From: an uncultured cyanobacterium
GTDB lineage: Bacteria; Cyanobacteriota; Cyanobacteriia; CAKZMO01
NCBI GenBank assembly: GCA_963719515.1
Contig: CAVRCJ010000014.1
Coordinates: 96,001-160,000, forward strand
Direction: 5' to 3'
Length of the DNA: 64,000 nt
Shown: positions 8,060 to 56,040 of the stretch, one piece after another
Position numbering within the stretch: position 1 is the stretch's first letter
How the letters are laid out: each line of letters opens with the position of its first letter
The notes under the pieces: model-generated
What the model was told of the DNA's origin: nothing
The model's database searches: none
Seen by the model: the letters and a program-made list of their open reading frames with translations, nothing else
Made by a program: the position numbers and the translations under genes

Positions 8060-8767
8060 CTATGCCGTCACTAGCTCGGGTTGAGGGCGCTTGCTGTTGC
8101 GAATGTCCTCGATTGCCGTGGCATAATCATCCGCTTTAAACACGGCTGACCCGGCCACGACGGCGTTGGCGCCTGCCTCTAGCACCTGCCAGGTGTTGTG
8201 GGACTTGAGACCGCCGTCGACTTCAATCCAGGGATCGAGGCCCCGCTCGTCGCACATCTGGCGCAGCTTCTGAATTTTGGGGAGCACGCCAGGAATGAAG
8301 CTCTGCCCACCAAAGCCAGGGTTGACGCTCATGATCAAAATCAGATCGCAAACTTCTAAGACATAGTCAATTAGATCTAGGGGCGTTCCAGGATTGAGGA
8401 CGACTCCCGCTTTTTTGCCCAGCTCTCGAATTTGGCACAGGGTCCGGTGCAGGTGCGGAGATGCATTGTGCTCACAGTGGACGGAAATCATGTCGGCTCC
8501 GGCCTTGGCGAAGCCCTCGACGTACTTCTCAGGCTCAACGATCATGAGGTGAACGTCGATGGGCTTTTGGGTCATGGGCCGAATCGCCTCGACAATCAGA
8601 GGACCAATGGTGATGTTGGGGACAAAGCGACCATCCATCACGTCCACGTGAATCCAATCTGCGCCGGCTTTATCGACTGCTTTGATCTCTTCACCAAGGC
8701 GGCTGAAGTCGGCTGACAAAATCGATGGGGCAATAACAATGGGCTTAGTAGATTGAGTTTGGGTCAT
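8060..8767 (-). CDS. rpe: Ribulose-phosphate 3-epimerase
   Basis: [17 protein letters not shown] and [10 protein letters not shown] motifs. Confidence 0.97.
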
Positions 8768-8849
8768 AGCGCAACGGGTCCTCTGACATCCTATCTGTAA
8801 GCTTATTTTAACAAATTACGGTTTTGATGCGTTTGGTAGCGGAGATAAC

Positions 8850-9247
8850 GTGACATCCTCCCGACGCTGACAGCAAGCTGTACAGCGCGGGCTTCCTCAG
8901 TGACTCCCAGCTATTGCCGAGACATGTCCTGAGATAGGTTTATACTCCGCCTGATGCCCCACGGCAGAGTTTTGAATTTTCATCTCCGCGAGGGAGGATA
9001 CGCACTATGTGTCGCAGATACATTTGCAAACTGAGGAACGGGTGACTTGCAGCTTTCGCCTACGGGCCCGTCACACTCTTTGCGGGGTGTATCACCTTGC
9101 TATCTCTATCATACCAACTGCTAGCCTCAGCGCTGAGCGCACTATCCGCTGTGCATCATTTTGCGGGCGCACTTCGGCTAGCGCGACTCTCATCCCGACG
9201 CTCACCCTGACGGGTAGAGCGCGGGGCTTCCTGTCTAGTAGCTAAAA
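8850..9247 (-). mobile_element. Non-autonomous IS200/IS605-family element, copy 1
   Basis: 398 bp identical to 55643-56040 except one base; related subterminal hairpins (CCCGACGCT..AGCGCGGG) at both ends; minus strand ends in TCAC; no TIR or TSD. Confidence 0.8.
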
Positions 9248-29790: not shown

Positions 29791-30807
29791 TTACCACAGG
29801 CCGCGGACGGGCTGAGTCGTCGCTGCAGGCTGAGTCGTAGTCACTGTGGGTTGAGTTGTGGTCGTGGTCGTGGTCGTGGTCGACTCCATTTCCATCTCAG
29901 ACTCCATTCCCATGTCGGAGTCCATCTCCATCTCAGACTCCATTTCCATGTCGGAGTCCATTTCCGAGTCCATTTCGGAGCCCATTTCCATTTCCGAGTC
30001 CATGTCGGAGTCCATTTCCGAGTCCATTCCCATGTCGGAGTCCATGTCGGAGTCCATTCCCATGTCGGAGTCCATCTCAGACTCTCCCTGTGCCTCCAGT
30101 TCATTCTGCGTACTTGGACCGTCCGTCATCTCGGTCTCCGTCGGCTCGTCGAGCTCAGATTCTCCGTCAGACTCCATCTCAGACATCGTTATGCCCGGAT
30201 TGACGGACATCATCATGCCATCGTCGGCCATGATGGCGACTATAGTGTCATCTGAAATCAGCAGCGAGATATCATCGCCGGGGTTCAAGCTCAGGCCAGC
30301 AATCTCTGACGAGCCGACGTTGATCACCTCTAAGCCGCTGGTGTCCTCACGGTCAACGCGAATCGTGCCAAAGTCAGGATCAATCTCGCGCACGGTAGCG
30401 GATACAAACATAGACATGGGCGCTGCAGTCGGCTCACCGATGGGTCCAGTGTTGACCGCCATCATCATACCGCTCTCGCTCTCGGAGATAGCGATAACGT
30501 TGCCGTCGCGGATGACAAGGTCAACCATATCCCCTTCTTTCAAGGTGGCAACGTCTTCTTGGCCCACATAGATAACTTCTAGCGTCCCGGTGTCTTCGCG
30601 GTCGACGCGAATCTCGCCAAAGTCCTCATCCACGTTCCGAACTGTACCAGAGACGGTCATAGCCATCATGCCCATCTCTTCAGAAGTCTGAGCCATGAGT
30701 GACGGTGCTGTACCCTCGACACTAATAACCTCTTGCGCGAAAGCAGGCGCAGCAATAAACGAAGCCGCTGCCGTAGAGGCAAGTAGGACAGAACGTAAAG
30801 ATACCAT
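29791..30807 (-). CDS. Secreted acidic Met-rich repeat protein ending PVRGLW
   Basis: RBS TAGGAG, signal peptide AFA-Q, two homologous beta domains, (M-D/E-S-D/E)n tract, poly-Thr. Confidence 0.8.
   Translation of the reverse strand: MVSLRSVLLASTAAASFIAAPAFAQEVISVEGTAPSLMAQTSEEMGMMAMTVSGTVRNVDEDFGEIRVDREDTGTLEVIYVGQEDVATLKEGDMVDLVIRDGNVIAISESESGMMMAVNTGPIGEPTAAPMSMFVSATVREIDPDFGTIRVDREDTSGLEVINVGSSEIAGLSLNPGDDISLLISDDTIVAIMADDGMMMSVNPGITMSEMESDGESELDEPTETEMTDGPSTQNELEAQGESEMDSDMGMDSDMDSDMGMDSEMDSDMDSEMEMGSEMDSEMDSDMEMESEMEMDSDMGMESEMEMESTTTTTTTTTQPTVTTTQPAATTQPVRGLW
29883..30085. repeat. Degenerate 6/12-bp coding tandem repeats (e.g. TCCATGTCGGAG)
   Basis: Directly visible; encodes the MDSE/MDSD tract. 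Confidence 0.85.
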
Positions 30808-53722: not shown

Positions 53723-54958
53723 ATGGCAACTTTTCGAGGCTCAAACTTTCGCGACGACATTACGGGAACTAGGTTCGCTGACTCCATTGCTGGCTTTGGG
53801 GGTGATGATGACATTGATGGACGCGAGGGCAACGATCGCCTCTTTGGTGGAGCCGGGGACGATGACATCGATGGGGGCACCGGGGACGATGATATTGATG
53901 GCGGTACCGGGGACGATCATATTGATGGTCAGAAAGGCGACGATATCGTCCTTGGGTTTGACGGGGATGACAAGCTGCTAGGCGGCGATGGGGATGACGT
54001 CATTTACGGCGAAGAGGGCGAAGACTTTCTCGATGGCGAGGATGGTGACGATGAGCTGTTTGGCGGTGACGACGACGATCGCCTCGAGGGGGGTGACGGC
54101 GATGATCTGCTGGAGGGCAACGACGGCGACGATATCCTGGCCGGGGAGGAGGGTAACGATGAGCTCGATGGTAACGATGGCGATGATACCCTCATTGGCG
54201 GCAACGGCGACGATGAGCTGTTTGGCGGTGACGATGGCGATCGCCTCTTCGGCGGGGCGGGTACCGACAGCTTGTTCGGCGACGATGGGGACGATTTTCT
54301 TCGAGGGGACGGCGATAACGACAGTCTAGAAGGCGGCAATGGCGACGACCGTCTGTTGGGCAATGGCGGCAACGACGAGCTATTTGGCGGCGGCGGCAGC
54401 GACGATCTGCGGGGCGGCGGGCAGCAGGATAGTCTTTTTGGGGAGGCCGGGAACGATCGGCTGCGGGGCAATGGCGGGCAGGATGACTTGGACGGCGGCA
54501 GTGGCCGGGACACTCTAGAAGGCGGCGGCGGCAGCGATCGCCTAGAAGGCGGTCTGGGCAACGATAAATTAATTGGCGGCGGCGGCAGCGATGTACTGGT
54601 TGGCGTCGATAGCAGCGTCGGCAGACCGGGCCGGGGGGAGGTGGACGAGCTGACGGGGGGCGGCGGCAGCGATCGCTTTGTTCTAGGCAGCCGCACCGAG
54701 GTCTTTTATGACGATGGCAGGCGGGGTCAAGGCCGACGAGACTATGCCCTAATTAGAGACTTTAACCTCCGACAGGACGTGCTGGTGCTGCGGGGAGCGG
54801 AGGACTATGTGCTGCGCCCGTCTCCTATTAGAGGGGCGAGATCTGGAGACTTGGGCATTTTTATTGACCGGTCGGGCCGCCGTAACGATGAGCTCATTGC
54901 AGTGGTGGAAGGGGCCGGTGGCCTAGATCTTACGGGCCGCGCCACTCAGTTTCAATAG
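53723..54958 (+). CDS. RTX-type calcium-binding repeat protein
   Basis: More than 30 GGxGxDxLx nonapeptides; C-terminal DYALIRDF region. Confidence 0.9.
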   Translation: MATFRGSNFRDDITGTRFADSIAGFGGDDDIDGREGNDRLFGGAGDDDIDGGTGDDDIDGGTGDDHIDGQKGDDIVLGFDGDDKLLGGDGDDVIYGEEGEDFLDGEDGDDELFGGDDDDRLEGGDGDDLLEGNDGDDILAGEEGNDELDGNDGDDTLIGGNGDDELFGGDDGDRLFGGAGTDSLFGDDGDDFLRGDGDNDSLEGGNGDDRLLGNGGNDELFGGGGSDDLRGGGQQDSLFGEAGNDRLRGNGGQDDLDGGSGRDTLEGGGGSDRLEGGLGNDKLIGGGGSDVLVGVDSSVGRPGRGEVDELTGGGGSDRFVLGSRTEVFYDDGRRGQGRRDYALIRDFNLRQDVLVLRGAEDYVLRPSPIRGARSGDLGIFIDRSGRRNDELIAVVEGAGGLDLTGRATQFQ

Positions 54959-55642: not shown

Positions 55643-56040
55643 GTGACATCCTCCCGACGCTGACAGCAAGCTGTACAGCGCGGGCTTCCTCAGTGACTCC
55701 CAGCTATTGCCGAGACATATCCTGAGATAGGTTTATACTCCGCCTGATGCCCCACGGCAGAGTTTTGAATTTTCATCTCCGCGAGGGAGGATACGCACTA
55801 TGTGTCGCAGATACATTTGCAAACTGAGGAACGGGTGACTTGCAGCTTTCGCCTACGGGCCCGTCACACTCTTTGCGGGGTGTATCACCTTGCTATCTCT
55901 ATCATACCAACTGCTAGCCTCAGCGCTGAGCGCACTATCCGCTGTGCATCATTTTGCGGGCGCACTTCGGCTAGCGCGACTCTCATCCCGACGCTCACCC
56001 TGACGGGTAGAGCGCGGGGCTTCCTGTCTAGTAGCTAAAA
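55643..56040 (-). mobile_element. Non-autonomous IS200/IS605-family element, copy 2
   Basis: Matches 8850-9247 with a single mismatch (G8926 vs A55719). Confidence 0.8.

What the first reader, a model, noticed from the sequence alone, without database searches (positions are those of the whole stretch)
8850..9247. Mobile, protein-free IS200/IS605 element that appears to express a stand-alone omega-RNA-like guide RNA
Seen: 398 bp duplicated 46.8 kb away with one mismatch, no TIR or TSD, related hairpins at both ends, and a minus strand ending GGATGTCAC. Inside is an extended -10 (TGGTATGAT, 9116-9108) followed by about 250 nt of dense structure. This includes GCAA and GAAA loops, the stem CTCTGCC/GGCGGAG (its G-U pair favours the minus strand), a 9-bp long-range duplex (9030-9038 with 8893-8901), and a GTGAC able to pair with the terminal GTCAC. 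Known: TnpB omega-RNAs end at the IS right end, form a terminal pseudoknot, and take their guide from flanking DNA. Inference: this is a non-autonomous cassette mobilised by TnpA in trans that supplies a TnpB-like protein encoded elsewhere with a new guide at each insertion. The copy 1 guide would be about GTTATCTCCGCTACCAAACG.
Basis: partly seen in the sequence, partly recalled or inferred. Interest (0 to 1): 0.8.

Follow-up and report, generated by a model that had tools for sequence, protein, structure and literature searches.

The report
Gene-less transposon carrying TnpB guide RNA
This 392-base stretch is one of 53 near-identical copies of a protein-free jumping element in a cyanobacterium that appears to carry its own promoter and a folded guide RNA for a TnpB nuclease made elsewhere in the genome; such elements are already known, but this family places an undescribed RNA segment in front of the guide scaffold.

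Summary
The element is 392 nt (8850-9241, minus strand). It inserts after TTAG, ends in TCAC, makes no target duplication and has 53 copies at 96-100% identity. Its ends are shared with tnpA+tnpB and tnpB-only IS605-type elements; the genome holds 16 intact copies of that TnpB. The last ~120 nt are a TnpB omegaRNA scaffold homologous to the resident tnpB tail, with covarying stems in protein-free relatives from several cyanobacterial families. Its -10 box matches one at a fixed distance from the RNA start in 12 of 12 relatives of one type. Corrections: the pseudoknot partner is loop GGCAT (8958-8954), not GTGAC; the 9-bp duplex is unsupported; the 5' 130 nt are not unusually structured. None of 53 guides has a second target in the genome (P about 0.013, uncontrolled). 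Expression and TnpB binding are untested. PATEs with omegaRNAs and stand-alone omegaRNAs are published, and this scan found the class before on other DNA. New here: a shared protein-free scaffold variant behind at least four dissimilar 5' domains. New variant of a known kind.

The parts
9242..9245 (-). Target tetranucleotide TTAG (host DNA; predicted TAM, with T preferred one base further out)
   Evidence: Precedes 53 of 53 copies; T at the next position in 47 of 53
9182..9241 (-). Left end with subterminal hairpin; DNA guide word AAGC at 9229-9226
   Evidence: Identical to the left end of the tnpB-only parent; TTAG goes with AAGC in 10 and TGAG with CAGC in 4 of the 14 relatives parsed, of 18 given
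9118..9181 (-). Spacer hairpin between left end and promoter
   Evidence: z -2.9 against shuffles; aligns with the same part of a 449-nt sister family in this genome
9108..9116 (-). Extended -10 box TGGTATGAT; inferred RNA start at 9101
   Evidence: Variants TGCTATACT and TGGTATAAT in G002 and G004 keep the consensus; in type-A relatives TAnnnT lies 6 nt before the conserved start in 12 of 12. Not found by the strict -35/-10 scan
8972..9101 (-). 5' domain (type D) of unknown origin and role
   Evidence: 9 of 132 and 16 of 133 columns differ in G002 and G004; no Rfam, IsrB-RNA or tnpB-relic match; z -0.6
8944..8970 (-). omegaRNA stem 1; loop GGCAT (8958-8954) is the predicted pseudoknot partner of ATGTC (8856-8852)
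   Evidence: 100% of cells paired, 4 of 9 pairs with two-sided changes in 17 sequences; loop and end change together in tnpB tail L210
8896..8933 (-). omegaRNA stems 2 and 3 (CTCAG/CTGAG and inner hairpin)
   Evidence: Pair probability 0.99-1.0; homologous to the resident tnpB tail
8850..8895 (-). Right end: DNA guide word GAAG (8895-8892), subterminal hairpin, terminal TCAC
   Evidence: Fixed end in 53 of 53 copies; last 85 nt 85-88% identical to the parent right end
8830..8849 (-). Predicted guide of copy 1 (flanking host DNA); its target is the empty site
   Evidence: Flanks differ in every copy; G002 has the empty site
55643..56034 (-). Second copy of the element in the window
   Evidence: One mismatch to copy 1

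Best explanation
A PATE-type, protein-free IS605-group element that is also a self-promoted gene for a TnpB omegaRNA. Shown from sequence: ends, target, copy number, parents, scaffold homology and covariation. Inferred: (1) TnpA from the tnpA+tnpB parent moves it by peel-and-paste after TTAG; (2) the internal extended -10 promoter makes an RNA from about 9101 through TCAC into the flank; (3) TnpB from the 398-aa resident family binds the last ~120 nt in trans, probably trimming off the 5' 130 nt as TnpB trims its own mRNA; (4) the flank-derived guide plus TTAG TAM matches only the empty site left after excision, so cleavage and recombination restore the element. It is a parasite of both TnpA and TnpB, which would explain 53 copies against about 21 parents.
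For: 53 copies, 96-100% identical, fixed ends, random flanks. Same left end and related right end on 1.48-kb tnpB-only and 1.8-kb tnpA+tnpB elements; proteins typed as guided_TnpB and IS200/IS605 transposase; 16 full-length TnpB copies keep all three RuvC-region motifs I checked. Scaffold of 110-121 nt in these elements against 116 nt in ISDra2, with the pseudoknot at nearly the same place (PMC10097598 passages). Named structure on 17 protein-free cores: 94.9% of cells paired, 11 of 30 pairs with two-sided changes, 0 of 500 shuffles reach the covariation score. Stem 1 has diverged from coding sequence yet stays paired, so the scaffold is maintained, not just left over. -10 box at fixed spacing: 12 of 12 type A, 8 of 8 type C, 9 of 11 type B. 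The 3' part is closer to the resident tnpB tail (0.85) than to any other tail (0.74). Same-clade TnpB found in 9 of 10 other genomes with such cassettes. 0 of 53 guides match another TTAG+12-nt site, against 7.8% of TTAG sites, P about 0.013.
Against: No transcript, binding or cleavage data. The strict promoter scan finds no minus-strand site. No close TnpB (best full-length hits 33% and 40%) was found in G002 and G004, which hold the element, though both are fragmented. Matching to the resident tail holds in only 2 of 11 genomes with a tail to compare (G000, G040). The self-target deficit has no control: no multi-copy non-TnpB family was recovered, and assembly loss of nested repeats could give the same result. 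Covariation in hairpins cannot by itself separate RNA from single-stranded DNA structure. The pseudoknot pairs barely vary among protein-free copies (3 of 5 never vary; one is U-U in 5 of 17).
Confidence: 0.7

Rival explanations
1. A plain PATE: it spreads through TnpA alone, and the scaffold and -10 box are passengers with no working RNA in this genome.
For: Peel-and-paste needs only the ends. The 5' domain diverges about as fast as the left end and is not unusually stable. Cognate TnpB not found in G002 and G004. Shortened relatives that lack promoter and 5' domain exist (L134, L138, L148).
Against: Compensatory changes in stem 1, which lies outside the terminal hairpins; fixed -10 spacing across families; the interior is not a fresh deletion product of the parent (no BLAST match for query positions 86-303).
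Confidence: 0.15
2. The RNA is made and binds TnpB, but its main effect is regulatory: a decoy that soaks up TnpB, or a carrier for a 5' domain with its own function.
For: 53 promoter-bearing copies could outnumber parent transcripts. Type A and B 5' domains show compensatory changes. A region of a TnpB mRNA is reported to inhibit cleavage, possibly by pairing with the scaffold (PMC10278001 passages), and domain D carries a 9-nt complement of stem 2.
Against: That duplex has pair probability 0.0. Domain D has only 1 two-sided change among 32 predicted pairs in 3 sequences. Minimal relatives lack any 5' domain.
Confidence: 0.12
3. A self-splicing, intron-like element (IStron type) that is removed from host mRNA.
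For: A few copies sit inside reading frames.
Against: 45 of 53 copies are not spanned by a frame of 150 codons or more, against 769 of 2000 random TTAG sites, so genic insertions are purged. No intron or ribozyme family in Rfam. The element ends in C, not the G that ends group I introns (recalled).
Confidence: 0.02

Closest known systems
PATE-like protein-less IS200/IS605 elements of Geobacillus stearothermophilus (Meers et al., bioRxiv 10.1101/2023.03.14.532601; passages read)
   Same: Ends shared with tnpA/tnpB elements, no protein gene, omegaRNA that must be used in trans; TAM/TEM covary with the DNA guide words; retention by cleavage of the donor joint.
   Different: The passages I saw do not describe an internal promoter, a non-coding-adapted stem 1, or separate 5' domains.
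Stand-alone omegaRNAs of OMEGA systems (as summarised in PMC10691335; passages read; the 2021 primary paper was not read)
   Same: Mobilised, effector-free RNA genes in genomes that hold a compatible effector; reported to work in trans; role stated as unknown.
   Different: Here the partner is a TnpB clade with TTAG target and TCAC end, and the guide lies at the 3' end.
PATEs of Haloquadratum walsbyi (PMC3119063; passages read)
   Same: No inverted repeats, near-terminal palindromes like IS605, no target duplication, homogeneous high-copy families.
   Different: Described as DNA elements, some as core-deletion products; this one has an interior unrelated to the parent and a maintained RNA scaffold.
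ISDra2 TnpB omegaRNA (PMC10097598; passages read)
   Same: About 116-nt scaffold, several stems, pseudoknot between the first loop and bases -7 to -2, dispensable 5' part.
   Different: The ISDra2 RNA overlaps the tnpB gene; here the 5' part is non-coding and follows its own promoter.

Membership tests
PATE / non-autonomous IS200/IS605 element | No terminal inverted repeats; similar subterminal hairpins at both ends | tested here: met
PATE / non-autonomous IS200/IS605 element | Insertion 3' of a fixed short target, no target duplication | tested here: met
   TTAG in 53 of 53; frames continue across the rebuilt junction in the 5 genic copies examined; empty site in G002
PATE / non-autonomous IS200/IS605 element | No protein gene; ends shared with a tnpA-bearing element | tested here: met
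PATE / non-autonomous IS200/IS605 element | Mobilised by TnpA in trans | not testable with these tools
   Inferred from shared ends and 53 near-identical copies
TnpB omegaRNA (stand-alone) | Scaffold ends at the right end; guide comes from the flank | tested here: met
TnpB omegaRNA (stand-alone) | Conserved stems with covariation | tested here: met
   11 of 30 pairs with two-sided changes, 7 of them outside the right-end hairpin
TnpB omegaRNA (stand-alone) | Pseudoknot between first loop and terminal bases | tested here: inconclusive
   91.8% of cells paired but no two-sided change among 17 protein-free cores; one two-sided change among 28 tnpB tails (L210); position agrees with ISDra2
TnpB omegaRNA (stand-alone) | Compatible, catalytically intact TnpB in the genome | tested here: met
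   16 full-length copies with the checked motifs; compatibility inferred from scaffold similarity
TnpB omegaRNA (stand-alone) | Transcribed across the right end | not testable with these tools
   No expression data could be obtained; only promoter conservation
TnpB omegaRNA (stand-alone) | Binds TnpB and guides TAM-dependent cleavage | not testable with these tools
   Needs bench work
HEARO / IscB-IsrB omegaRNA | Match to HEARO or an IsrB-RNA covariance model | tested here: not met
   No match for the element or its relatives; controls positive
IStron | Group I intron core; tolerated inside genes | tested here: not met

The most novel reading that the evidence does not exclude
These cassettes are an old, protein-free lineage of RNA genes specialised for capturing TnpB in trans: a shared promoter module and a lengthened stem 1 and linker not seen in tnpB tails, a 3' scaffold that can be refreshed from the resident tnpB element, and exchangeable 5' domains (at least four types) that control loading, processing or stability, or recruit another protein.
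Probability: 0.2. Interest if true: 0.7.

Novelty: new variant of a known kind. Interest (0 to 1): 0.42.

Why it matters
The role of stand-alone omegaRNAs is stated as unknown (PMC10691335). This genome offers a clean natural test: 53 recent copies, each with its own guide, an intact transposase and 16 intact nucleases. If the RNA works in trans, its scaffold is a naturally evolved TnpB guide free of coding constraint, useful for guide design, and the 5' domains are uncatalogued RNA folds. The principle itself is published, which caps the score.

Tried and rejected
Expression: no RNA holder listed; this is no evidence either way, and no reads were laid. Rfam: nothing for the element, 5 type-A loci or 9 type-B/C loci. 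Plasmid and phage collections: no match to the element; type B and C queries matched only tnpB tails. Domain D outside the genus: only short chance-level matches in 7 of 400 other genomes; the type-A 5' model found nothing in 151 genomes, with no positive control in that set, and nothing at the element. 5' domain as an IscB/IsrB RNA relic: a pairwise hint (z 2.7, best of 16) was not upheld by HMMs (uninformative: almost nothing scored) or by an IsrB covariance model with positive controls. 5' domain as a tnpB coding relic: not above shuffles (the DNA model in 115 also missed the core, so it had no working control). General tracking of the resident tnpB scaffold: holds in 2 of 11 genomes only. 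Control for the self-target deficit: none found. Intron reading: rejected. Viral contigs were not scanned.

Full report
Observation. The window is cyanobacterial (a psbD-like ORF and frequent GCGATCGC words; both labels recalled). The stretch 8850-9247 recurs at 55643-56040 with one mismatch. BLAST of the genome gives 53 full-length copies at 96-100% identity, in 33 distinct sequences. All 53 follow TTAG on the window's minus strand and end in TCAC, and flanks beyond are random. The element proper is therefore 392 nt, 8850-9241. There is no target duplication: in the five genic copies examined a reading frame runs through the rebuilt junction, and genus relative G002 has the empty site upstream of rpe. 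45 of 53 copies are not spanned by a long frame, against 769 of 2000 random TTAG sites, so insertions in genes are mostly purged.

Parents. The same left end and a related right end bound a 1,483-nt tnpB-only element (14 copies of that length) and three elements of about 1.8 kb with divergent tnpA and tnpB. NCBIfam types the proteins as guided_TnpB and IS200/IS605 transposase. Sixteen TnpB copies are full length with the three motifs I checked, GVDVG, HEKL and RDHNAA (their catalytic role is recalled). The word before the left hairpin covaries with the target across relatives: AAGC with TTAG in 10 and CAGC with TGAG in 4 of the 14 left ends parsed from 18 loci, the kind of covariation that Meers et al. 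describe.

The RNA core. The last ~120 nt align with the 3' tail of the resident tnpB and with 28 tails of the same TnpB clade from other genomes. A scan with a 26-nt pattern from stem 1 found 36 loci in 9 assemblies from several cyanobacterial groups and 5 metagenome loci. None had a tnpB hit apart from one weak tail match; 20 of the 41 have at least 300 nt upstream to judge by, and many of the 36 come from one assembly. A covariance model of the core hit 11 of 151 genomes. Of 26 loci examined outside G000, 25 lack tnpB, one of them probably a false hit. The model was trained on protein-free copies, so this shows a coherent group, not that omegaRNAs are usually gene-free. On 17 protein-free cores my named structure has 94.9% of cells paired and 11 of 30 pairs with two-sided changes; stem 1 is 100% paired. 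The sequences are related, so the shuffle counts are not probabilities. Core length is 110-121 nt; the ISDra2 scaffold is 116 nt with a pseudoknot between bases near -105 and the terminal bases (PMC10097598, passages). The matching contact here is GGCAT (8958-8954) with ATGTC (8856-8852). It is nearly invariant among protein-free copies and shows one two-sided change among tnpB tails.

Promoter and 5' domain. Relatives share the layout left end, spacer hairpin, extended -10 box, 5' domain, core. TAnnnT lies exactly 6 nt before the conserved start in 12 of 12 type-A loci, with TG in 11; a similar box is at a fixed distance in 8 of 8 type-C and 9 of 11 type-B loci. G002 and G004 change the box but keep the consensus. 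This places the start at 9101. A strict -35/-10 scan does not find it. The 5' domains fall into at least four types. D is no more like A, B or C than shuffles are; A and one C sequence show a weak likeness (z 3.0-4.6). Types A and B show compensatory changes, type C few (5 of 60 pairs). Type D, the one here, was found only in G000, G002 and G004, folds no better than shuffles, has 1 two-sided change in 32 predicted pairs, and matches no Rfam family, IsrB RNA model or tnpB relic. A motif for the outer stem 1 and linker occurs in 14 of 19 protein-free cores and 0 of 28 tnpB tails; I wrote it from the protein-free alignment, so this is partly circular.

Partner and targets. The part from stem 2 to the end is 0.85 identical to the resident tail and at most 0.74 to others; G040 shows the same, nine other genomes do not. 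A same-clade TnpB was found in 9 of 10 other cassette-bearing genomes but not in the fragmented G002 and G004. No guide of the 53 copies has a TTAG plus 12-nt match elsewhere, whereas 7.8% of TTAG sites are repeated in that way (P about 0.013). This fits selection against self-cutting guides, but no control family was available.

Mechanism. Most likely (0.7) TnpA moves the element, its promoter makes a ~250-nt RNA running into the flank, resident TnpB loads and trims it (TnpB trims its own mRNA: PMC10278001, passages), and cleavage of the empty site restores the element, as shown for tnpB elements by Meers et al. (passages). Transcription, binding and cleavage are inferred, not shown. Rivals are a passive PATE (0.15), a decoy or regulatory RNA (0.12) and an intron-like element (0.02).

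Novelty. PATEs with omegaRNAs used in trans and stand-alone omegaRNAs are in print. Nine literature searches (listings and abstract starts only) listed no paper whose title or abstract start describes this cyanobacterial family or its 5' domains. PMC13639567 and PMC13565253 were searched for passages and added nothing. I read no supplements and not the 2021 primary paper; their tables may list such elements. Earlier notes of this scan report the class in other genomes and a sister element in this one. Verdict: new variant of a known kind, interest 0.42.

Noticed in passing
G000:C15:118404-118860 and 17 other places: A second protein-free family (449 nt, 18 copies) with the same TTAG/TCAC ends and a homologous left end, spacer and -10 box, but a different 5' domain and a longer scaffold.
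   Followed up: partly
G000:C3:566934-567363: A third mini-element of about 420 nt (6 full-length hits at 88-100%) that shares its 3' 200 nt with the 449-nt family.
   Followed up: partly
G000:C3:185815, C1:96746, C6:428458: Copies of the element interrupt what look like an ABC transporter, an old-yellow-enzyme-type flavoprotein and a tnpB of another family (labels recalled from motifs).
   Followed up: partly
window 8767-8849: The element's promoter points at the rpe gene 83 nt beyond the right end, so read-through could affect rpe expression.
   Followed up: no
L134, L138, L148: Shortened relatives of about 160-225 nt keep the omegaRNA core but have lost promoter and 5' domain.
   Followed up: no
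L025, L133, L140, L145 (type B 5' domain): Strong covariation (11 of 28 pairs) and, by eye, a possible H-type pseudoknot right before the core.
   Followed up: partly
window 53723-54958: ORF made of glycine- and aspartate-rich nine-residue repeats of the calcium-binding type (label recalled).
   Followed up: no
window 29867-30100: Array of 6-18-nt tandem repeats.
   Followed up: no
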